Source of the DNA: Candidatus Auribacterota bacterium
GTDB lineage: Bacteria; Auribacterota; Tritonobacteria; UBA1439
DNA: 64,000 nt
Reading direction: 5' to 3'
Assembly: GCA_026392035.1 (NCBI GenBank)
Contig: JAPLCX010000085.1
Location: 1,335-65,334 of the forward strand
Made by a program: the position numbers and the translations under genes. The notes beneath the pieces were generated by a model. The model was given only the letters and a program-made list of their open reading frames with translations, did no database searches and was not told the DNA's origin. Of this stretch, positions 2,782-40,724 are shown piece after piece; the stretch's first letter is position 1, and each line of letters starts with the position of its first letter.

Positions 2782-3510
2782 CTACCGCGTGAGGACCGCG
2801 CACACGGCGGAGGCGCACGCGATCAGGAAACTCCCTGCGATGTCCGCCGGGGAGAGAAGGAACTTCTCAGGCTTGAACTTCTTGGCGCAGTGGTTTGCCA
2901 CCGGTAGACGGATGAGCATGACAGCCGGTACAAGCGCGAGATATGCATACCCCCCCACCATGAGCGCGAAGAGAATGCCGCGCTCAACAACTCCATAATA
3001 TTTTGAGAAGCCATCAGGCATGAGTGCGTATTCGGGAGCATGCAGAAGTGTGCGCTTGGCAGAATCGAGCAGGTAGACCCCACTGAACGTGGCCACGAGA
3101 AAAAATATGGAGGTGGTGATCACCCCCGCGCGATCGAGCCTCTGAATGATGCCCCCCTGCAGCTCGGGCAGCCCCGGGAGTGGGGTCATGAATACGGCTG
3201 CGATCACCGCGATGTGCATCGCCTGATCCAGGAGGAACGTCCCGAGATCATTCCGGGGGCCCAGGCGGTCGAGGAAGGCCACTTTAACATAATCCACCAT
3301 CAGATGAGCGCCCGCGACCACGGAGATGAAGCGCCAGAATGACCAAGAGCCGATGAGCGGGTAACCCGCGAGCGCCATTGTACCCAGGCAGATGAGGGCG
3401 TGTGGAATCTGTCCCGCGAGGTATCTTCTCTTCAACCGGTAGATATGCGCGGACTGCAGGGGAAAATCGGCGACCAGGTGCGCCAGGATCAGCAATTTAA
3501 AAAGCAGCAT
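2782..3510 (-). CDS. DUF3307-like membrane protein
   Basis: LAHLVADFPLQ, H..H..VD and F.LDQ.MH motifs; start moved to ATG 3510. Confidence 0.7.
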   Translation of the reverse strand: MLLFKLLILAHLVADFPLQSAHIYRLKRRYLAGQIPHALICLGTMALAGYPLIGSWSFWRFISVVAGAHLMVDYVKVAFLDRLGPRNDLGTFLLDQAMHIAVIAAVFMTPLPGLPELQGGIIQRLDRAGVITTSIFFLVATFSGVYLLDSAKRTLLHAPEYALMPDGFSKYYGVVERGILFALMVGGYAYLALVPAVMLIRLPVANHCAKKFKPEKFLLSPADIAGSFLIACASAVCAVLTR

Positions 3511-3519
3511 GGATATTTT

Positions 3520-3713
3520 GTAACTACTCAGGTAGTCAGAAGCCAGGAGCCAGAATCCAGAATGGATCGCGAATAAGCTTCCAGTAGCTTGCTGACCTCT
3601 TCGAGTAACTGCATTAACCCTGAATTCCGGCTCCTGAGCAGTAATGTCGCCGCTGGCGTCCTCATTCCAACTCCTGGCTCCTGACTCCTGAATTCTGGCT
3701 CCTGAGCAGTTAC
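3520..3713. mobile_element. Small TIR-bounded element holding a deleted four-helix-bundle gene remnant
   Basis: Ends GTAACTACTCAGG / CCTGAGCAGTTAC (13-bp IR, 1 mismatch); inverted heptamer arrays (CAGGAGC/CAGAATC); encodes MRTPAAT...LLEEVSKLLEAYSRSIL. Confidence 0.6.
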
Positions 3714-3715
3714 CA

Positions 3716-5167
3716 TTACATCTGCTCCAGGGCGAGGAGGCCGATGAACTCATCCGCGCTGATCGCGGACGGCGAGGCCATGTAGTGCGTTCCCAGGACG
3801 TCCCCGGCAACCGGGGTGATCGCCCCGCGCACCGCGCTGCCGGTGATCTGGAGCACCACGTCGATGGAACCGTCAGAGTAGTACGTCTTGGAAACCTCTT
3901 CTGCCCCCTGCACCACTCCCTTGACCGCGATATCGACCTGATCGTTCTGAACGGCGAAGTTTTTGAGCGTCGTCGAGGAGGTTACCACGGCGCCGTATAT
4001 CTTCTCGGCGAGCCGCCGGTACGCGTCCACCGTCGCCGCCCGCTCGGTGGTGGCGCGAATGAAGGCCCCGAAGGCGCCGGCGTATTCCGTGAGGGATACG
4101 GGGGTCACATTTTTCCAGACCAGCGCGATATCGCGATTGATTATTTTGCGCACTCGCTCGAGCGGGTACTCCAGCCGCAACGTCGCGCGGCGCTCGTTCT
4201 TCTGGTATTCCGATTTTATCACGTGGGCGTTGCCGGTGCTGTCGAGCAGCGCCTCACAGATTTTTGGATCCTTATTCATGAGGTCGCCGACCGTCTCCTC
4301 ACCCGAAAGCCTGATCATTTCGAGCTTATCGATGATCCCCTTCTGAGCCCGGTAGCGCGCCTCACCCATCGCCCAGCGCTCGGCTTCCCGGGGGTTTTCG
4401 ATCTCCGCGGGAGCGGTCACGCTCGCCTCGGCGCCGATGACGATGTTCCCGAGGCTCGGCTTCGGGCTCTTGAGGCGTTCCAGCAATCCCTGCGCATCCT
4501 TGAGCGGCACCTTCGGGTCGCCGAGCCTCTTGATCAGCAGCTCCTTTGGGGGCAGGCCGGTTCCCTTTGCCCTCAGCAGCGCCGCCGTCCACGGCGCCAC
4601 GGTGGTGCGCTGTTCGGGACTCACGTTGACATATTTCTGGGGCTCGCCGACCGCCATGACGTTCACCGTGCCGCTGGAGACTGCCACGCGCGTCGCCTGG
4701 GTTTCCCCCTCCGCACCGAACGAGAACGCGGTGCCGCGCACGGCGGCCACCGCGACAGGCGACTTCAAACTCAGGCGCGTCCCCGCGGGGAGCTTGTCCA
4801 GCTTGGCGATGATGTCCCCCTTCAGCAGGCCGAGGTCGGTCAATTTCATCACCGAGCCGTCGGGATCCTTCGACTCCTTGGAGAGCTGCTCGATCTTCAG
4901 GAGCGAGTTTTCCCTGAGCCGGAACTTGTTCGGCGGATCCAGCTGCATATCCGCATAGCAGTTGTTGGATGTCCTGAGCGAATCCGTCGCGACGAGCGAT
5001 GTCCCCACTCTCGCGGCCGACCATGCAGTCGACGGCGGCTTCAGGCACTCGGCATGGCGGTACACCTTGATGAGGGAGACCGACGGGCCCGTTTCTGAAC
5101 CTCCGTAGAGCGCGAAGGGGATGCACACCCCGAGTCCGATAACGAGCGCACGAGTAAGGGTGTTCAC
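3716..5167 (-). CDS. Exported FecR-domain protein with C-terminal LPP20/FlgT-N-like repeats
   Basis: Signal-like N-terminus, GTG start with GGAGG RBS, FecR core (KFRLRENSLLKI...SPVAVAAVRGTAF), and two A...A...A helical/beta repeats. Confidence 0.7.
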   Translation of the reverse strand: MNTLTRALVIGLGVCIPFALYGGSETGPSVSLIKVYRHAECLKPPSTAWSAARVGTSLVATDSLRTSNNCYADMQLDPPNKFRLRENSLLKIEQLSKESKDPDGSVMKLTDLGLLKGDIIAKLDKLPAGTRLSLKSPVAVAAVRGTAFSFGAEGETQATRVAVSSGTVNVMAVGEPQKYVNVSPEQRTTVAPWTAALLRAKGTGLPPKELLIKRLGDPKVPLKDAQGLLERLKSPKPSLGNIVIGAEASVTAPAEIENPREAERWAMGEARYRAQKGIIDKLEMIRLSGEETVGDLMNKDPKICEALLDSTGNAHVIKSEYQKNERRATLRLEYPLERVRKIINRDIALVWKNVTPVSLTEYAGAFGAFIRATTERAATVDAYRRLAEKIYGAVVTSSTTLKNFAVQNDQVDIAVKGVVQGAEEVSKTYYSDGSIDVVLQITGSAVRGAITPVAGDVLGTHYMASPSAISADEFIGLLALEQM

Positions 5168-5318
5168 GACAATTCCTCCCCGCCGAAACCGATGTAGTGA
5201 ATCGGCGATTGTTGTTAAGTTTCTATTGTCGGGAAGTGTATCACAGCACGCGCGCTCCAGCCAAGCCAATAGAGAATCGCGGACTATCCCCAGTTTTCAG
5301 AAAAGTAGCTTTGATGTT

Positions 5319-10267: not shown

Positions 10268-11041
10268 CTATTTTTCCCCTTTCTTCTTCCTGATCTCCCC
10301 AAGTGTGACCTCAAGAATCCCTCGCTCACGCAACGCCTCATTCGCCAGGGACTGATAATCCTCGCCCCTGCCCCTCCAATCATAGCAGATATTGATCGTC
10401 TTCCTGAGGAGCATGGCCTCATTCACAAGCTCCTCCGGGACGACCCGCTTAAATAGCCTTGCGTAGCGGCCGGAGACCAGATCCATAATGGTTGTCCCCT
10501 CCGCGAGGCGCCCTTCCCTGTTGATAAGCCCCCGGTCGAAAAGCTCTTTCAGGAGCGCCGGCATCCTGGGTTTTATCATCAATTTTTTTATAAAACCCTC
10601 TATCATACCTCCCACCCTCTTCTGAATCTCCTTATCCACTAAAGAAACAATAATGGCGCTGATCTCCTTCTGCATCTTTTCACTGTAGCGATGGGGCGCT
10701 TTCCCCGAGATGGTGTTTTTCAACACATCGACGGGGGAGATCTTTATCGGAAGCTTCATCATCTCCCTGCCCCGCTCCTTGATAATGTAATGCATTTCAA
10801 CGGTCACCCCTTCCAACTCCCTTATGAGCCTCTTCCTCTCCTCCGGCGCAACAGCGGCGATGACCTTCCGGCAATGCTTCTCCATATCGAGGAGGAGATT
10901 CAAAACAGCCGGTCCGAGTTGGGGGAAGAAAATGGATGAAAATTTGTAAAGCGCCGCGGCCTTGTCGCTGTCGAACAGATCTGAATTGACGTAGAGCGGC
11001 GAAAAAAGTTCGGCAGGAGCGTTCAATAGAGATGGTTTCAT
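10268..11041 (-). CDS. Hypothetical protein (257 aa)
   Basis: Long ORF with natural composition; no family recognised. Confidence 0.6.
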   Translation of the reverse strand: MKPSLLNAPAELFSPLYVNSDLFDSDKAAALYKFSSIFFPQLGPAVLNLLLDMEKHCRKVIAAVAPEERKRLIRELEGVTVEMHYIIKERGREMMKLPIKISPVDVLKNTISGKAPHRYSEKMQKEISAIIVSLVDKEIQKRVGGMIEGFIKKLMIKPRMPALLKELFDRGLINREGRLAEGTTIMDLVSGRYARLFKRVVPEELVNEAMLLRKTINICYDWRGRGEDYQSLANEALRERGILEVTLGEIRKKKGEK

Positions 11042-11071
11042 GGTTGATGCCGGAGTAAAGCATTATATGTT

Positions 11072-11094
11072 GTAACTGGCTCCTGAGCAGTTAC
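11072..11094. repeat. Collapsed GTAACTG...CAGTTAC element end
   Basis: GTAACTGGCTCCTGAGCAGTTAC; last 17 nt identical to 3697-3713. Confidence 0.65.
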
Positions 11095-11101
11095 GGGGAT
11101 T

Positions 11102-11728
11102 TTACACATTGTAAATATCCCCTATCTTTCTGAATGGCAGCCGATAGATAATATAGATGATAATAAAATCATCCTTGAGCAGCTCTTCCAGCCCGTGGCG
11201 CACCCCCATGAACACCAGCGGCGCCTCGCCATCCTGGAGCGTGCTCTTGATCCTCCCCGCGATAAACTCGTCCCGTTGTTTCATCAGTTCCGCACTCTCG
11301 GCCCTGTACCGCTCCAACGCCGCGGCATGATCATGGGCGGACGCGATAAACCTGGTGAGGCAATCATATTCCTTGATCAGCAACTGCTGATCCTCGGTGC
11401 CTTCGATCCGCGCCCCATTATTCAATAAATCAAGAATCAGTTGGTGATTCCGGCTCCCCTTCTCGGCAAGCTTCGACACAACCTCCCTCTCCATCCCGCA
11501 CACAGGCAGGCTGTCCTGGTAAATTCTCATAGAAGAAAAAACAACCTGGGTTTCATGAATCTTCTTGTATATCCCATCCCACATGTCTTTCACTGACTTG
11601 TCGTACTCGTTTCCCGGCTTATCCGCGTGTTTTCCGCCCCCGCTTGCTTTCAACGAGAAAACGATATCCTCGCTCTCCCGATGGGTATGAAGAACGGGAA
11701 CATATAAAAGATTGAACGGTTTGATCAT
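11102..11728 (-). CDS. Uncharacterised receiver-associated protein (paralogue of 47488-48126 and 46026-46412), possibly TraB/GumN-like fold
   Basis: Shared motifs YVPVLH, IYQDSLP, EGTED, RD.FIA.RI..TL, LVFMG..H. Confidence 0.75.
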   Translation of the reverse strand: MIKPFNLLYVPVLHTHRESEDIVFSLKASGGGKHADKPGNEYDKSVKDMWDGIYKKIHETQVVFSSMRIYQDSLPVCGMEREVVSKLAEKGSRNHQLILDLLNNGARIEGTEDQQLLIKEYDCLTRFIASAHDHAAALERYRAESAELMKQRDEFIAGRIKSTLQDGEAPLVFMGVRHGLEELLKDDFIIIYIIYRLPFRKIGDIYNV

Positions 11729-25118: not shown

Positions 25119-25181
25119 GGTTCCCTCCTCTCTTTATGAAATCTTGCAAGGCCTCAGTTTTTGGATCAATCCCCATGTTCC

Positions 25182-25242
25182 GTAGGGGCGTGATTTATCG
25201 CGCCCGATATAATTTCTCGGGTTCGATGAATCGAACCCCTAC
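25182..25242. repeat. GTAG-type REP doublet
   Basis: GTAGGGGCGTGATTTATCGCGCCC and inverted GGGTTCGATGAATCGAACCCCTAC. Confidence 0.8.
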
Positions 25243-25321
25243 AGTACTGTATTAACAAGCCTTTTAGTGATGGATTTGAAATCTTGTCTTTTTTTCTTCT
25301 CTGTGATATTATTCTAACAGG

Positions 25322-36551: not shown

Positions 36552-36656
36552 TTGTCATTGCGAGCGGAGCGAAGCAATCTCTTGTTCCGCAATGAGTTGA
36601 GATTGCCACGTCCGCCTCGTCCCGCTTAGCGGGACTCGGCGTCCTCGCAATGACAA
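36552..36656. repeat. TTGTCATTGCGAG...CTCGCAATGACAA palindromic element
   Basis: 13-bp TIR, internal GAAGCAATCT/AGATTGC arms, nested GTCCCGCTTAGCGGGAC. Confidence 0.85.
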
Positions 36657-37114: not shown

Positions 37115-38236
37115 ATGAAATACATCTGGGAGCGCAGAAATTGGTTTGATTTTAAATATGACGATGCCGTCTTGCTCAAGCCCTTGAGCCATCTGCGAGT
37201 CTTGCAGGGGAAATTATTGGGCCGCATTGCCTCTCTTGATATTAAGCTCGAGACCGAAGCTCAGGGGGCTATTCTGGTTGAAGAAGCCGTCCGCACCGCA
37301 GAAATAGAAGGACAAAAGCTTAATCGGGACGCAGTTCGCTCATCGGTGGCTGTAAGGCTTGGCTTGCCGCGCGGTATTGGTACTCACGATAGGAATGTTG
37401 ACGGCCTTGTGGATGTTTTGCTTGATGCCGTTTGTTTTCACGATAAGCCTTTGACGCTGGAGCGACTTAATGGCTGGCATGCGGCATTGTTTCCTTCGGG
37501 TTACTCCGGTTTAAAAAAAATAATTGCAGGGGAACCACGGGGTAATGCGCCTATGCAGATAGTTTCCGGCCCCATCGGTAAAGAAAGGGTGCATTTTGAA
37601 GCGTTGCCGGGGGAGCACCTCGATGAAGAAATGCGTCTCTTTGTAAAATGGTGGGATTTGTCGCCAGGCCGCATGGATGGCATATTGCGCGCGGCCGCTG
37701 CCCATCTGCGTTTTGTGACAATTCACCCTTACGAAGATGGTAATGGCCGTTTGGCAAGGGCTTTAACGGACATGGCTTTGGCGCAAGACGAAAAATTAAA
37801 AGTCAGGTTTTACAGTGTCTCGTCTGAGATTATGCGCTCAAGAGACGAATATTATAAAATCCTTGAGGATGTGCAAAGATGCCGTCTCGATGCCACGAAA
37901 TGGTTTATATGGTTTATCAAATGCGTCACGGCATCCATTGAGCATTCCAGAGATATCATCGCCAACGTATTCATACGATTTGACTTTTGGAATCAGCACA
38001 CCCAGACACAACTTAACGAGCGTCAGAAAAAAGTTCTAAACCGCATCCTGGATGCCGGGCCCGGCAATTTTGCCGGCGGTCTGACAACGCGCAAATACGT
38101 AAGTATTGCCAGGGTCAGCCGCTCCACCGCTTTTCGTGAAATCGCAGATATGCTCGATAAAAATGTCCTGCGCCAATTACCCGGCAAGGGCCGTAGCGTT
38201 CATTACGATTTGGTTTGGCCAAGGATGGACAAGTAG
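37115..38236 (+). CDS. Fic-family protein (DUF4172-Fic-HTH type)
   Basis: HPYEDGNGRLAR; C-terminal SRSTAFREI..ML HTH. Confidence 0.92.
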   Translation: MKYIWERRNWFDFKYDDAVLLKPLSHLRVLQGKLLGRIASLDIKLETEAQGAILVEEAVRTAEIEGQKLNRDAVRSSVAVRLGLPRGIGTHDRNVDGLVDVLLDAVCFHDKPLTLERLNGWHAALFPSGYSGLKKIIAGEPRGNAPMQIVSGPIGKERVHFEALPGEHLDEEMRLFVKWWDLSPGRMDGILRAAAAHLRFVTIHPYEDGNGRLARALTDMALAQDEKLKVRFYSVSSEIMRSRDEYYKILEDVQRCRLDATKWFIWFIKCVTASIEHSRDIIANVFIRFDFWNQHTQTQLNERQKKVLNRILDAGPGNFAGGLTTRKYVSIARVSRSTAFREIADMLDKNVLRQLPGKGRSVHYDLVWPRMDK

Positions 38237-38259
38237 GCAAAATTATAGGCACTTTAGAT

Positions 38260-38330
38260 GTAACTGCTCAGGAGCAAGAATTCAGGAGTCAGGAGCCAGG
38301 AATTGGAATGAGGACGCCAGCGGCGACATT
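38260..38330 (+). repeat. Left end of the GTAACTGCTCAGG element with a four-helix-bundle N-terminal stub
   Basis: 71 bp, 2 mismatches to the reverse complement of 3643-3713; reads MRTPAATFEDL and then breaks off. Confidence 0.75.
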
Positions 38331-38390
38331 TGAGGACTTGGGATACGGCGATGTTTCCGAGTTATTACGGGGAGCATAAAATACTTTACA

Positions 38391-38489
38391 TGTCATTGCG
38401 AGGAGCGCAGCGACGAAGCAATCTCAACTCTATGCGCAGCAGGAGATTGCTTCTCCCGCTTTGCGGGACTCGGCCTCCTCGCAATGACA
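38391..38489. repeat. TGTCATTGCGAG...CTCGCAATGACA palindromic element
   Basis: Same family as 36552-36656. Confidence 0.85.
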
Positions 38490-38810
38490 ACCTTAATGCT
38501 GATTTTTTCACACCTTCTGACCCCTTACGTTTTTATCAATGTCATTCGTTATCTGTGCTTGCTCAAGCCACATATTCCAATAGGCAATGAGTTCCTCTTC
38601 AGATAAATTGCGAAGATCAAGGTCTTCTTCGCTTGGAAATTCATCTCTGATTCTGTCCATAATCGGGTAAACCTTCAACCTGAAACGGCAATATCCCATC
38701 AGCCTTGTCAACGATAATATTATGCGCCTCGATAAGCGAATGGCCGGCCGTTTCCCTCTGGACATCGGGCCATATCGCCAACCATTCCTCCGCCGCCTTC
38801 GCGTACGCCA

Positions 38811-39044
38811 TCAGTCTTCTTTCATTGGCATGAATACGCCGACTTCATCATCCACTGCCATCGAAATCTCTCCATAATACTTAAAAAAATGCCTGGGGTT
38901 TATTCCACTCACCGCCAAATCAATGTCGCGCGCCGTTACAACATTATCAATGCACGAACCGAATAGCACTATTTTCCCCGCTCCGTACGTCTTGCTTATC
39001 TCCACGATCCTGCTTAATTCCTTTTCAAGACTCTTTTTATTCAT
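38811..39044 (-). pseudogene. Truncated minimal nucleotidyltransferase (MNT antitoxin-like)
   Basis: VLFGS...RDIDLAV; ends before the usual third Asp region and C-terminal helix. Confidence 0.6.
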
Positions 39045-39098
39045 TATGCCCCTTCGCAATACCCTTCGGAATTTCCGGCAGGCTTCTCCTCATTACCC

Positions 39099-40505
39099 TC
39101 ATTCTATTCCTTCACCATTGATAGATATACCCAGCTTCTTCATTTTCCGGTACAGCGCCTTCCTGTTCATCTGCAACATCTTCGCCGCTTTGACCTTGTT
39201 GCCTCCCGCCAGCGCGATTGCCTTTGTGATAAGACTCCTTTCAACCCTCCCCCTGATTTCCTCAAAGGAGGCGCCCTCGTTCAGATCCACCTTCAATTCC
39301 AGGCTTTCTTCCACATCGTTAACCGCCTCCAGCGGCGCCCCCGGCGCATCAGGGGACATGTACTCCGGTTCAATAACCCCCCCGCCGGCCATCAGGACGG
39401 CTCTTCTCACCATGTTCCTGAGCTCCCGCACATTACCCGGGTAACCATACTCAAGCAAATATCCAACCGCCGCTTTAGAAAAACCTTCCGCCTTTTTTCC
39501 GAACTCCTCATTCGCCTCTTTTAGAAAATGGTCGGCGAGCATGACAATATCGTCTTTCCTCTGACGGAGGGGAGGAAGCGCGATGCAAAACTCATTGAGG
39601 CGGTGGAAGAGGTCCTGCCGGAACTTCCCCCGTTTTACCCATTCCGTCAAATTGACGTTTGTCGCCACAATCACCCTCACATCAACATCCACACCCCTTC
39701 TCCCCCCCAGATGTTGTATCCTGCGTTCCTGAAGCGCCCGGAGCAGTTTCACCTGCACATTTTCGGTGAGATTGCCTACCTCATCCAGAAAGATGCTGCC
39801 TCCCTGCGCCTGCTCGAATTTACCCTCCTTCAGGGCATCCGCGCCCGTGAAGGCTCCCCGCTCATGGCCGAAGAGCTCGCTCTCTACCAGCGTCTCAGGG
39901 ATCGCTCCACAGTCAACTGCGACGAACGGCTTGTCCTTCCGCGGGCTGCTCTCATGAATCATCTGCGCGAGCAGTTCCTTGCCGGTTCCGCTCTCACCCT
40001 GGATCAGAACGGTCATAGTGGTCGGCGCGACAATTTTGGCCTGGCTTATCACGCGCATAATCACACTGCTTTTCCCCATTGACTGCTCCAGGGCGGTCTT
40101 CTCCCCCAATCTCTTCCTCAGTATCTCCACCTCTCTGCTCAGATAGTGCGACTGGAGCGCTTTCCTGATCACAAGGACCAGCTCCTCGTTATCGAACGGC
40201 TTCGTAATGTAATCGAACGCGCCCAATTTCATTGCTCGCACCGCGTCTTTCACCTCGCCGAACGCGGTAAGCATTATGATGATAAGATTCTTATCAATCC
40301 TCTTCATCTCCTCTAAAAGCTCAACCCCATCCATCCCGGGTAGCTTGATGTCCAGCAAGGCCAGGTCCGGCCTGACCTTCTTGACCTTTTTAATCGCGGC
40401 TTTCCCATCTTCAACAGCGAACGTGTCAAACCCTTCTTCCCTCAGGATATCAGAGAGGGTCATGCGCAAATCGGCGTTATCGTCTACAATTAAAATGGAT
40501 TCCAT
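39099..40505 (-). CDS. sigma54-dependent NtrC/AtoC-family response regulator
   Basis: REC, GESGTGKE, GAFTGA, LDEVG, PGNVREL, Fis-type HTH. Confidence 0.96.
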   Translation of the reverse strand: MESILIVDDNADLRMTLSDILREEGFDTFAVEDGKAAIKKVKKVRPDLALLDIKLPGMDGVELLEEMKRIDKNLIIIMLTAFGEVKDAVRAMKLGAFDYITKPFDNEELVLVIRKALQSHYLSREVEILRKRLGEKTALEQSMGKSSVIMRVISQAKIVAPTTMTVLIQGESGTGKELLAQMIHESSPRKDKPFVAVDCGAIPETLVESELFGHERGAFTGADALKEGKFEQAQGGSIFLDEVGNLTENVQVKLLRALQERRIQHLGGRRGVDVDVRVIVATNVNLTEWVKRGKFRQDLFHRLNEFCIALPPLRQRKDDIVMLADHFLKEANEEFGKKAEGFSKAAVGYLLEYGYPGNVRELRNMVRRAVLMAGGGVIEPEYMSPDAPGAPLEAVNDVEESLELKVDLNEGASFEEIRGRVERSLITKAIALAGGNKVKAAKMLQMNRKALYRKMKKLGISINGEGIE

Positions 40506-40623: not shown

Positions 40624-40724
40624 CGTCATTGCGAGAAGTCCCGCTGAGCGGGACGACGAAGCAATCTAGCATTTCCCGCGTAAAAGCGAGATTGCCACGC
40701 TCCCTGCGGTCGCTCGCAATGACG
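40624..40724. repeat. CGTCATTGCGAG...CTCGCAATGACG element inserted among CCCCCTTT hairpins
   Basis: Third copy, nested GTCCCGCTGAGCGGGAC; flanked by 40544-40612 and 40752-40768 G/C-tract repeats. Confidence 0.85.

What the first reader, a model, noticed from the sequence alone, without database searches (positions are those of the whole stretch)
3520..3713. GTAACTGCTCAGG-ended element at three stages of decay, tied to a four-helix-bundle gene
Seen: (i) a TIR-bounded 194-bp element fusing the N-terminal stub (MRTPAAT) to the C-terminal stub (LLEEVSKLLEAY) of a four-helix-bundle gene; (ii) a left end only at 38260-38330 (71 bp, 2 mismatches, MRTPAATFEDL); (iii) a 23-bp collapsed form at 11072-11094. 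All carry CAGGAGC/CAGAATC heptamers. No transposase is present. Inference: a distinct mobile-element class whose cargo is a four-helix-bundle protein, leaving graded non-autonomous derivatives.
Basis: partly seen in the sequence, partly recalled or inferred. Interest (0 to 1): 0.7.

Follow-up and report, generated by a model that had tools for sequence, protein, structure and literature searches.

The report
Decayed hairpin transposon from four-helix-bundle gene
The window holds three dead relics of a small hairpin-shaped mobile DNA element whose intact form carries one gene, a four-helix-bundle protein of the 23S rRNA intervening-sequence family, and no transposase, so what moves it is unknown.

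Summary
Window 3520-3713 is a 194-bp element on the minus strand, GTAACTGCTCAGG...CCTGAGTAGTTAC. Window 38260-38364 is a left part of 105 bp, not 71. Window 11072-11094 is a 23-bp collapsed form.

A scan of public genomes found 56 loci, mostly in uncultured Auribacterota and 'Chlamydiota' MAGs. The standard form is a 200-bp MITE with 13-bp inverted ends, inverted arrays of the heptamer CAGRAKN, and 8-bp target-site duplications: 28 of 43 copies match at 7 or 8 of 8 positions, and offset controls never reach 6.

Intact relatives of 425-432 bp (L058, L069) have the same ends and duplications. They carry a 122-aa PF05635/TIGR02436 gene under purifying selection (dN/dS about 0.11). The MITE is that gene with its middle deleted, and the remnant evolves nearly neutrally (pN/pS 0.8).

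All three window sites are polymorphic in close relatives: an empty site, a copy with the perfect duplication ATGTAATG, mini-forms, and a complete copy. Window copy 1 lost its duplication through a 110-nt deletion next to its right end.

No transposase or autonomous partner was found. Heptamer-flanked copies of the gene without the GTAAC ends are widespread and are present or absent between 98%-identical Nostocales plasmids.

The mobile, decaying-element reading is supported. 'Distinct class' is not shown.

The parts
3520..3713 (-). Copy 1: a 194-bp rearranged MITE. It lies 2 nt after the stop codon of the FecR/LPP20-like gene (3716-5269, minus strand) and 9 nt before the ATG of the DUF3307 gene (2782-3510, minus strand).
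   Evidence: The RNA folds into one long hairpin: -89.4 kcal/mol, z -6.6.
3701..3713 (-). Left terminal inverted repeat, GTAACTGCTCAGG.
3670..3704 (-). Left heptamer array. On the minus strand it reads CAGGAGC CAGAATT CAGGAGT CAGGAGC CAGGAGT. Each CAGGAG unit contains a Shine-Dalgarno-like AGGAG.
3645..3665 (-). N-terminal stub of the four-helix-bundle gene, ATG..ACA = MRTPAAT.
   Evidence: The same N-terminus continues as FEDLVVWQKAHQFVL in the less-deleted relatives P0064 and P0077.
3619..3644 (-). Internal second copy of element nucleotides 4-27 (TTACTGCTCAGGAGCCGGAATTCAGG). It replaces 30 nt of the standard form. Its junction TTCAGG|GTTAATGCAG is the same as in the 118-bp short form L056.
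   Evidence: (D2, 96%).
3528..3618 (-). C-terminal stub including the stop codon: ..LMQLLEEVSKLLEAYSRSILDSGSWLLTT*. In the other MITE copies the equivalent segment aligns to residues 86/89-122 of the intact protein.
3537..3564 (-). Right heptamer array, inverted relative to the left one. It encodes the last codons of the remnant ORF.
3520..3532 (-). Right terminal inverted repeat (minus strand: CCTGAGTAGTTAC). It is joined directly to AAAATATCC-ATG. The right target duplication and about 100 nt of intergenic DNA seen in relatives are missing.
38260..38364 (+). Copy 2: the left 105 bp of a standard 200-bp MITE (inverted repeat, heptamers, MRTPAATFEDLGYGDVSEL). It is cut off after 38364. The copy is complete in a strain with 99.3%-identical flanks (L057).
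11072..11094 (-). Copy 3: a 23-bp collapsed form, GTAACTGCTCAGGAGCCAG|TTAC. It lies between the stop of gene 11102-11728 and the start of gene 10268-11041. It is absent from the same spacer in a close relative whose neighbouring protein is 96% identical (L151).

Best explanation
The three features are dead relics of one family of small non-autonomous DNA transposons (MITEs).

**Parent element (shown).** It is about 430 bp long. It has a terminal GTAACTR, then 4-5 tandem heptamers (NNCAGRA, many containing AGGAG) that run into the ATG. Next comes a 122-aa PF05635/TIGR02436 four-helix-bundle gene. Its last codons and stop lie in the inverted heptamer array, followed by YAGTTAC. The element is flanked by an 8-bp target duplication.

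**Derivatives (shown).** Internal deletion of the gene's middle gives the 200-bp standard MITE. Further loss of the hairpin's centre gives forms of 138-147, 115-118, 57, 31 and 23 bp.

**Mobility (inferred).** An unidentified transposase encoded elsewhere binds the ends and possibly the heptamers, and makes 8-bp staggered cuts in the target. An IS66-like enzyme is a lead only, from the GTAA start and the 8-bp duplication.

**History of the window copies.**
- Copy 1 is an old insertion at ATGTAATG, straddling the stop codon of the upstream gene. It was rearranged internally and then lost 110 nt next to its right end.
- Copy 2 lost its right half.
- Copy 3 collapsed to 23 bp.

**Likely effect (inferred).** Where a copy is transcribed within an operon, its near-perfect stem (about 35 bp around the ORF in the intact element, longer in the window copy) would probably be an RNase III substrate. 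This is known for the 23S rRNA intervening sequences that carry the same gene family.
For: **Family and copy number.** The 19-mer scan returned 56 loci. Of these, 23 are in one Auribacterota MAG, 12 in 'Chlamydiota ELA517' and 4 in a second Auribacterota MAG. Others are in Desulfobacterales, Desulfotruncus, and 'Thermotogae' and Verrucomicrobiota MAGs.

**Target duplications.** Of 43 copies with both ends, 16 match at 8/8, 12 at 7/8 and 5 at 6/8. Offset control 8-mers never reach 6.

**Intact parents.**
- L058 is 432 bp with the perfect duplication ACTTTTTT.
- L069 is 425 bp with ACGCAGGG/AAGCAGGG.
- L127 has duplications matching at 7 of 8 as read from the flanks, with a degenerate left end.
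- The L058 ORF hits PF05635 at E 5e-37, TIGR02436 at 117 bits and PDB 2gsc at E 3.5e-19.

**Descent by deletion.**
- The MITE cores align to residues 86/89-122 of the intact protein.
- Intermediates P0064 and P0077 keep more of the N-terminus.
- dN/dS is 0.11 for intact genes, against pN/pS 0.80 for the remnant ORF, which is intact in only 4 of 19 copies.

**Polymorphism at the window's own sites.**
- Site 1: empty in L148; a 138-bp copy with the perfect duplication ATGTAATG in L146/L147; a 31-bp mini-form in L149; a right end only in L150. The window shares L146's left junction but lacks 110 nt on the right.
- Site 2: complete in L057, whose flanks are 99.3% identical.
- Site 3: absent in L151.

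**Hairpin.** -89.4 kcal/mol, z -6.6.
Against: - No autonomous element or transposase with these ends was found in about 750 kb of fetched loci or next to any copy, so the mobilising enzyme is unknown.
- 76 of 80 close full-length gene copies have the heptamer arrays but not the GTAAC ends. I saw no clear duplication in their flanks. The gene-plus-heptamer cassette may therefore spread by another route, with the GTAAC-ended transposon as only one carrier.
- The window copies themselves show no duplication. Their transposon origin rests on relatives.
- The strong purifying selection on the gene is not explained by a pure 'cargo' role.
Confidence: 0.75

Rival explanations
1. The real mobile unit is the heptamer-flanked four-helix-bundle cassette itself, the same thing as the 23S rRNA intervening sequences. 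Its spread depends on its own protein: an Avd-like, probably pentameric nucleic-acid binder that recognises the tandem heptamers, working with host enzymes, by a route not yet described. Possibilities include hairpin DNA or an RNA intermediate. On this view the GTAAC ends are a secondary acquisition by one lineage.
For: - Nearly all 80 close gene homologues sit between inverted heptamer arrays, and only 4 have GTAAC ends.
- The cassette is a clean indel of about 420-430 bp between highly similar Nostocales plasmids (flanks 98% identical in the first pair, 83-89% in the second): T. variabilis plasmid C against pCC7120beta, and pNPUN01/02 against pNsp_b/pNFSY05.
- The gene is under strong purifying selection.
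- The number of heptamers per side is most often 4-5, and the closest solved homologue, 2gsc, is deposited with five chains.
- There is weak similarity to DGR Avd.
- The Coxiella 23S intervening sequence has variable tandem heptamers before the ORF of the same family (PMC4990558).
Against: - Every copy for which a mechanism can be read has inverted ends plus an 8-bp duplication, the classical transposase signature.
- MITEs that lack the gene still carry duplications, so the protein is not needed in cis.
- A 375-bp element with the same ends but no heptamers also has a perfect duplication (L052).
- No reverse transcriptase or other enzyme is linked.
- Many heptamer-only copies look vertically inherited at fixed sites, upstream of hisA, thiolase or HAD genes, rather than recently mobile.
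Confidence: 0.15
2. The copies are host-selected structured intergenic elements, such as RNase III processing sites, terminators or translational couplers between operon genes. On this view they are kept for function, are not mobile DNA, and their similarity is due to selection.
For: - They lie between a stop codon and the next start codon in co-oriented operons in the window and in cyanobacterial plasmids.
- The hairpins are very stable.
- Precedents exist: RNase III cuts the 23S intervening-sequence stems (PMC4990558), and Correia elements are processed likewise (my own knowledge, not checked here).
Against: - Target duplications are present.
- All three window sites are present or absent among close relatives.
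- The remnant evolves nearly neutrally, and the copies carry random deletions and truncations.
- The window has no Rfam match.
Confidence: 0.07
3. The matches are chance or an assembly artefact.
For: None beyond the short length of the 23-bp form and the fact that the source is a metagenome assembly.
Against: - The window has 9 matches against 1.16 expected.
- A 19-nt exact match has negligible chance probability in 64 kb.
- The same element occurs in independent assemblies from NCBI, JGI, ENA and Logan, including at the orthologous sites.
Confidence: 0.01

Closest known systems
Bacterial MITEs (for example Correia/nemis of Neisseria, ERIC, Nezha of cyanobacteria, Chunjie of Geobacter). These names are from my own knowledge and were not checked here.
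   Same: Small size (23-200 bp here), terminal inverted repeats, a fixed-length target duplication, no transposase, many copies per genome, intergenic or operon-internal location, a long RNA hairpin, and origin by internal deletion of a longer element.
   Different: The longer parent found here carries a 122-aa four-helix-bundle gene, not a transposase. No autonomous IS with matching ends was found. The ends continue into tandem heptamer arrays that also supply the gene's ribosome-binding site, start codon and stop codon.
23S rRNA intervening sequences carrying the S23p/IVP ORF (Leptospira, Coxiella burnetii; PMC4990558)
   Same: The same protein family (PF05635). The ORF is enclosed by terminal inverted repeats that form a long stem. 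Variable tandem heptamers lie just upstream of the ATG (GACAGAT x2-3 in Coxiella). Both show reductive decay of the ORF, and the idea that such sequences are mobile elements is long-standing.
   Different: The window copies and 40 related loci are not in rRNA genes. The GTAAC ends and 8-bp duplications were not mentioned in the passages of the Coxiella paper that I read. RNase III processing is untested here.
DGR accessory protein Avd
   Same: Four-helix-bundle fold family, with weak HMM similarity (PF22296 at 25.7 bits, NF033474 at 32.5 bits).
   Different: The scores are below both curated cut-offs (40 and 80 bits). No reverse transcriptase lay next to any copy whose flanking ORFs were listed, and template/variable repeats were not looked for.
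IS66-family insertion sequences. The family description (inverted repeats starting GTAA, 8-bp direct repeats) is from my own knowledge.
   Same: The ends start GTAA, and the duplication is 8 bp.
   Different: The canonical IS66 ends continue GTAAGCG, not GTAACTG. No TnpA, TnpB or TnpC partner was found. This is a lead, not a finding.
'Four helix bundle protein' / 'S23 ribosomal protein' genes annotated in Nostocales plasmids
   Same: Nucleotide matches cover 93-98% of the 432-bp L058 element in 9 of the 11 plasmid hits, including the heptamer arrays. The genes are inserted exactly between neighbouring ORFs, and the cassette is present or absent between near-identical plasmids.
   Different: They have no GTAACTR terminal heptamer. 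The duplication is ambiguous: GTAAT, or GTAATWAA at 7/8, in one pair, and none clear in the other.

Membership tests
MITE (non-autonomous DNA transposon) | Terminal inverted repeats | tested here: met
   GTAACTGCTCAGG / GTAACTACTCAGG match at 12 of 13 positions, in the window and across the family.
MITE (non-autonomous DNA transposon) | Target-site duplication of fixed length | tested here: met
   The duplication is 8 bp. 28 of 43 copies match at 7/8 or better, and controls never reach 6. The window copies themselves lack it; for copy 1 this is explained by a 110-nt adjacent deletion.
MITE (non-autonomous DNA transposon) | Small, multi-copy, no transposase | tested here: met
   Sizes are 23-200 bp, with at least 25 copies in one MAG. 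The only ORF is a gene remnant.
MITE (non-autonomous DNA transposon) | A related autonomous element with the same ends that encodes the transposase | tested here: not met
   None was found in about 750 kb of fetched loci. The longer relatives (L058, L069) carry a four-helix-bundle gene instead. Whole genomes could not be searched.
MITE (non-autonomous DNA transposon) | Presence/absence polymorphism at orthologous sites | tested here: met
   Site 1 is empty in L148 and filled in L146/L147. Site 3 is absent in L151. L037 carries a copy where L006 has none.
PF05635 / TIGR02436 four-helix-bundle (23S rRNA IVS) protein | HMM score above the curated cut-off | tested here: met
   For the intact relative L058: PF05635 at 126.7 bits (cut-off 33.8) and TIGR02436 at 117.1 bits (cut-off 24). 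The window stubs and the 47-aa MITE ORF give no Pfam hit. In other MITE copies the remnant aligns by tblastn to residues 86/89-122.
23S rRNA intervening sequence (IVS) | Located inside a 23S rRNA gene | tested here: not met
   There is no rRNA in the window or in 40 related gene-bearing loci.
23S rRNA intervening sequence (IVS) | Terminal complementary sequences form a stem that encloses the ORF | tested here: met
   Predicted stems: L058 has a terminal stem of about 35 bp; the window copy folds at -89.4 kcal/mol.
23S rRNA intervening sequence (IVS) | Excision from the transcript by RNase III | not testable with these tools
   This needs RNA end mapping or an in vitro cleavage assay.
DGR Avd | NCBIfam equivalog score and a linked reverse transcriptase with template/variable repeats | tested here: not met
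   NF033474 scores 32.5 bits against a cut-off of 80. No reverse transcriptase was seen next to the copies whose flanking ORFs were listed. Template/variable repeats were not searched for.
IS66-family derivative | Ends starting GTAA, with an 8-bp duplication | tested here: met
   The family definition is from memory, not checked against ISfinder.
IS66-family derivative | Ends shared with an element that encodes TnpC | not tested
   No IS reference library was on hand. A look at the first 50 kb of pO157 found no IS66 annotation.
REP/REPIN (RAYT-mobilised) | No target duplication; a linked RAYT gene | tested here: not met
   8-bp duplications are present. No RAYT was seen.

The most novel reading that the evidence does not exclude
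The 23S rRNA intervening sequences, the four-helix-bundle genes wedged between operon genes (in cas operons, conjugation operons, and upstream of hisA), and these MITEs are all one superfamily of 'heptamer-hairpin' elements. Their only gene encodes a pentameric protein that binds the tandem heptamers, on DNA or on its own transcript, and is required for the element's spread or retention. That would make it a mobile element whose sole element-encoded factor is a small non-catalytic nucleic-acid binder, related to the DGR cofactor Avd.
Probability: 0.2. Interest if true: 0.85.

Novelty: new variant of a known kind. Interest (0 to 1): 0.62.

Why it matters
The PF05635 '23S rRNA intervening-sequence' proteins are abundant across bacteria. 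They have been structurally solved (PDB 2gsc) and are related to the DGR cofactor Avd, yet their function is unknown. Since the early 1990s the intervening sequences have been suspected, without proof, of being mobile elements (PMC4990558).

This study adds direct marks of mobility for the gene. Intact copies have inverted ends and 8-bp target duplications. They have a large family of deletion derivatives, and related genomes and plasmids from cultured Nostoc/Anabaena strains hold both filled and empty sites. The old question therefore becomes testable:
- Which enzyme moves a 430-bp element whose only gene is a four-helix bundle?
- Why is that gene under strong purifying selection?
- Does the protein bind the heptamers that frame it?

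There is also a practical point. These hairpins sit inside operons, break MAG assemblies, and generate spurious 42-47-aa 'hypothetical proteins' in databases (78 protein hits, most of them 42-47-aa products of the MITE remnant).

Tried and rejected
- **Exact-sequence look-up.** The DUF3307 neighbour found nothing (after a frame error). A homology search replaced it.
- **Rfam.** No family matched in the window. There was no rRNA in 40 related loci, so the direct IVS context is rejected for these copies.
- **Search for an autonomous partner.**
  - ORFs next to seven solo left ends (L003, L008, L025, L027, L029, L040, L048) are ordinary genes.
  - Across all loci, the only pair of ends 450-6000 bp apart with a duplication was two separate MITEs in L010.
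  - An all-against-all comparison of the 56 genome loci found no IS-like repeat longer than 350 bp other than orthologous regions.
- **Viral contig scan with the 15-mer.** The first 120 hits contained no true element.
- **IS66 end comparison through pO157.** The first 50 kb had no IS66 annotation, so this was abandoned.
- **PADLOC.** The protein gave no defence-system hit.
- **Literature.** No paper in the library describes these ends, the duplications or the MITE family. The Beggiatoa TAACTGA-repeat paper is unrelated.
- **Mini-ORF as a selected micro-protein.** Rejected: pN/pS is 0.80 and only 4 of 19 copies are intact.
- **Duplications for heptamer-only cassettes.** The result is ambiguous and nothing is claimed.

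Full report
**Observation**

The three features are present as described.

- **Copy 1.** Read on the minus strand, window 3713..3520 is a 194-bp element. It begins GTAACTGCTCAGG and ends CCTGAGTAGTTAC. Five in-phase heptamers (CAGGAGC CAGAATT CAGGAGT CAGGAGC CAGGAGT) lie behind the left end, and an inverted array lies before the right end.
- **Copy 2.** Window 38260-38330 matches copy 1 at 97.2%.
- **Copy 3.** Window 11094..11072 reads GTAACTGCTCAGGAGCCAG+TTAC.

The 13-mer with up to 2 mismatches occurs 9 times in the window against 1.16 expected, and none of 100 shuffles reached 9.

Two corrections apply. Against the family's standard form, copy 2 extends to 38364, giving 105 bp. Copy 1 is composite. 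Nucleotides 1-71 are the standard left part, including ATG..MRTPAAT (window 3645-3665). Then comes a second copy of element nucleotides 4-27 (3619-3644). Then comes the C-terminal stub and right end (3528-3618). The junction TTCAGG|GTTAATGCAG is the same as in a 118-bp short form found elsewhere.

**Setting**

The window is bacterial chromosome at 53% GC. No tRNA genes were found, and there is no Rfam match, so no rRNA.

- Copy 1 sits 2 nt after the stop of a FecR/LPP20-like gene and 9 nt before the ATG of a DUF3307 gene. Both genes are on the minus strand, the same orientation as the element.
- Copy 3 sits between two co-oriented minus-strand genes.
- Copy 2 follows the stop of a Fic/DUF4172 gene.

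Neighbouring proteins have their named relatives in MAGs labelled 'Chlamydiota bacterium' and 'Candidatus Aureabacteria'. The window's own genome is not in the species-representative collection. Coding DNA is about 71% identical to an Auribacterota MAG.

**The family**

A scan of 185,579 species genomes with GTAACTGCTCAGGAGCMAG gave 56 loci.

| Source | Loci |
|---|---|
| Auribacterota MAG LacPavin_MAG_54_22 | 23 |
| 'Chlamydiota' ELA517 | 12 |
| Auribacterota MAG_61_7 | 4 |
| Desulfobacterales, the isolate Desulfotruncus alcoholivorax, 'Thermotogae' and Verrucomicrobiota MAGs | fewer |
| Probable chance hits | a handful |

The commonest form is a 200-bp element. Its sequence is GTAACTGCTCAGG, then heptamers, then ATG AGG ACG CCA GCG GCG ACA TTT GAG GAC TTG GGC TAC GGC GAT GTT TCC GAG TTA ATG CAG TTA CTC GAA GAG GTC AGC AAG ..., then inverted heptamers, then CCTGAGTAGTTAC. 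Shorter forms of 193, 186, 179, 147, 145, 144, 118, 115 and 57 bp share both ends.

A second subfamily has the same ends around a different core (L017, L023, L026, L036, L039). A 375-bp element in L052 has the ends GTAACTACTCAG...TGAGTTAC and a perfect duplication, but no heptamers and no gene remnant.

**Mobility marks**

Of 43 copies with both ends, the 8 nt on either side are identical in 16, match at 7/8 in 12, and match at 6/8 in 5. Control 8-mers offset by 12 nt never reach 6/8. This is a fixed 8-bp target-site duplication.

Copies without a duplication include L004, whose right flank equals the duplication of L019. That points to recombination between copies.

**The parent**

A protein search with the 47-aa remnant ORF found mostly the same 42-47-aa products. 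It also found two informative kinds of sequence:
- intermediates that retain more of the N-terminus (P0064 and P0077: MRTPATRFEDLVVWQKAHQFVL..., then the C-terminal helix);
- true PF05635 fragments (P0070).

The contig of P0070 (L058) holds an intact element of 432 bp. It reads GTAACTACTCAGG, then CAGGAGC CAGGAGT CAGAATT CAGAAGT CAGA-ATG, then a 122-aa ORF ending ..SILDSGS-TGA inside the inverted array, then ..GAAAAGTTAC. It is flanked by the perfect duplication ACTTTTTT.

L069 is 425 bp, has an intact ORF, and has the duplication ACGCAGGG/AAGCAGGG. L127 is similar, with duplications matching at 7 of 8 as read from its flanks and a degenerate left end.

The L058 ORF scores as follows:

| Library | Result |
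|---|---|
| PF05635 | E 5e-37, 126.7 bits |
| TIGR02436 | 117 bits |
| PDB 2gsc (XCC0516) | E 3.5e-19 |
| Avd models | weak, below cut-off |
| PADLOC | no hit |

The MITE core aligns to residues 86/89-122 of this protein. The 200-bp MITE is therefore the parent with codons about 12-85 deleted (FEDL|GYGD).

Intact genes are under purifying selection: median dN/dS is 0.11 over 19 pairs. The remnant ORF is not: pooled pN/pS is 0.80 and only 4 of 19 copies are intact.

**The window's own sites in relatives**

*Site 1*:
- In L148 (neighbouring protein 76% identical) the spacer is empty: ..CAGATGTAAAGATCTTGTGA...
- L146 and L147 (83% identical) carry a 138-bp copy with the perfect duplication ATGTAATG.
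- L149 keeps a 31-bp mini-form, GTAACTGCTCAGGAGCCAGAATTCAGTAGTTAC, with the right duplication, but its left flank is rearranged.
- L150 keeps only ..CTGAGTGGTTAC.
- The window shares L146's left junction (ATGTAATG|GTAAC). Its right end, however, abuts AAAATATCCATG. The right duplication and the rest of a 110-nt stretch present in L146, with a counterpart in L148, are missing.

A deletion that starts exactly at an element end is what one-ended transposase activity or end-stimulated deletion produces. This explains why copy 1 has no duplication.

*Site 2.* L057 is 99.3% identical to window 38080-38364 and carries the complete 200-bp copy. The window diverges after 38364 into unrelated DNA.

*Site 3.* In L151, whose neighbouring protein is 96% identical, the spacer is 22 nt long with no relic.

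**Beyond the GTAAC ends**

Eighty full-length homologues from metagenomes, 64-86% identical, are almost all framed by inverted heptamer arrays. There are most often 4-5 heptamers per side, and up to 29. The ATG usually lies in the last upstream heptamer (CAGAATG), and the stop lies in the first downstream one (..TCC TGA). Only four have the GTAAC ends (L058, L069, L127 and L131; L131 keeps only the right one).

Several occupy the same position in diverged contigs: before hisA, before a thiolase gene, and between a gene's stop and a HAD hydrolase gene's start. This suggests long residence.

In finished Nostocales plasmids the cassette is annotated 'four helix bundle protein' or 'S23 ribosomal protein', and it sits exactly between neighbouring ORFs.

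It is a clean indel of about 420-430 bp between related plasmids:
- T. variabilis plasmid C carries it and Nostoc PCC 7120 pCC7120beta lacks it. Their flanks are 98% identical. A truncated derivative occupies the same site in Nostoc C052.
- pNPUN01 and pNPUN02 carry it, while pNsp_b and pNFSY05 lack it.

The duplication there is ambiguous. In the first pair it is GTAAT, or GTAATWAA at 7/8. In the second pair none is clear.

**Literature**

The Coxiella paper (PMC4990558) describes a 23S intervening sequence with:
- a 28-bp terminal stem cut by RNase III;
- an ORF of this family;
- two or three tandem heptamers (GACAGAT) plus GACAGAA just before the ATG;
- reductive decay.

It also cites the old hypotheses that such sequences are transposition remnants or mobile elements whose ORF aids mobility.

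Other papers note these genes inserted within cas operons (PMC3936711) and scattered in rRNA insertions of CPR bacteria. I found no description of the GTAAC ends, the 8-bp duplications or the MITE family.

**How it most likely works**

*Shown:*
- the element's anatomy;
- the duplications;
- descent by deletion;
- polymorphism at orthologous sites;
- selection on the gene and neutrality of the remnant;
- the predicted hairpin (-89.4 kcal/mol, z -6.6; a terminal stem of about 35 bp around the ORF in L058).

*Inferred:*
- A transposase encoded elsewhere recognises GTAACTRCTCAGG, and perhaps the subterminal heptamers, and inserts the element with 8-bp staggered cuts.
- The GTAA start and 8-bp duplication recall the IS66 family. 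This is from memory and was not tested.
- Long palindromes are unstable in bacteria, which would explain progressive loss of the hairpin's centre down to 57, 31 and 23 bp.
- Transcribed copies are likely RNase III substrates.

*Unexplained:*
- what moves heptamer-only cassettes;
- why the gene is so strongly conserved.

A protein that binds the heptamers that frame it is the most attractive untested idea.

**Verdict**

The features are a real, non-random family of non-autonomous mobile elements. The three window copies are old, inactive relics.

The claim of a distinct class does not yet hold. The insertion signature is classical, and the gene family and its hairpin-plus-heptamer frame are already known from 23S rRNA intervening sequences.

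The new points are:
- the inverted-end and duplication evidence that this gene's element transposes;
- its large MITE progeny in PVC-group bacteria;
- the filled/empty pairs in cultured cyanobacterial plasmids.

Noticed in passing
window 36554-36654, 38392-38488, 40625-40723: A second small repeat family: three hairpin elements of about 100 bp, bounded by inverted GTCATTGCGAG ends. The middle one folds at -55.7 kcal/mol (z -7.3) and lies 27 nt after the breakpoint that truncates MITE copy 2. The sequence at the breakpoint itself (38361-38375, GTTATTACGGGGAGC) resembles a degenerate end of the same family.
   Followed up: partly
window 38365-39100: The DNA that replaces the right half of copy 2 is absent from the 99.3%-identical strain L057. 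It carries two small minus-strand ORFs, 38508-38765 and 38811-39059. The second has a weak, sub-threshold nucleotidyltransferase (Polbeta) match and could be part of an MNT/HEPN-type toxin-antitoxin pair. This is a strain-specific indel.
   Followed up: partly
window 25179-25243; L057 560-635; L150 20-75: Another small palindromic repeat type (..GTAGGGGCTTGATTTATCAAGCCCC.. / ..GGGTTCGATAAATCGAACCC..) recurs in the window and in related contigs.
   Followed up: no
L152-L155, spacer orthologous to window 11042-11101: In more distant relatives the same intergenic spacer is filled by tandem G/C-rich palindromes (CCCCCCTTTGCGAAAGGGGGGG-type). This spacer appears to be a hotspot for small repeats.
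   Followed up: no
L052 (reverse strand) 4177-4551: A 375-bp element with the ends GTAACTACTCAG...TGAGTTAC and the perfect 8-bp duplication AGTTGATA, but no heptamers and no four-helix-bundle remnant. Its interior holds GTCATTTCGACC/GTCATTCCGAGC-type repeats. The same ends can therefore mobilise other DNA.
   Followed up: partly
L072 (metagenome contig Ga0187893_10003392): An intact four-helix-bundle gene is flanked by 29 heptamers on each side (CAGGAGT/CAGAAGT), so the arrays can expand greatly. Such arrays might be mistaken for other repeat types.
   Followed up: no
L078, L079, L084, L094, L097, L103, L107; L093, L096; L100, L123, L124, L128: Heptamer-framed four-helix-bundle genes occupy the same position in contigs whose four-helix-bundle proteins are each only 67-77% identical to the L058 query. 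The positions are between a stop codon and a HAD-hydrolase start, just upstream of hisA, and just upstream of a thiolase gene. This suggests long vertical residence, or site preference, at stop/start junctions.
   Followed up: no
L004 versus L019 (same Auribacterota MAG): The right flank of the L004 copy (aacgcatccatc) equals the target duplication and flank of the L019 copy, although the two are on different contigs. This points to recombination between copies or a segmental duplication.
   Followed up: no
protein database hits P0001-P0061: Dozens of 42-47-aa 'hypothetical proteins' in public protein sets are translations of the decaying MITE remnant. This is an annotation artefact.
   Followed up: partly
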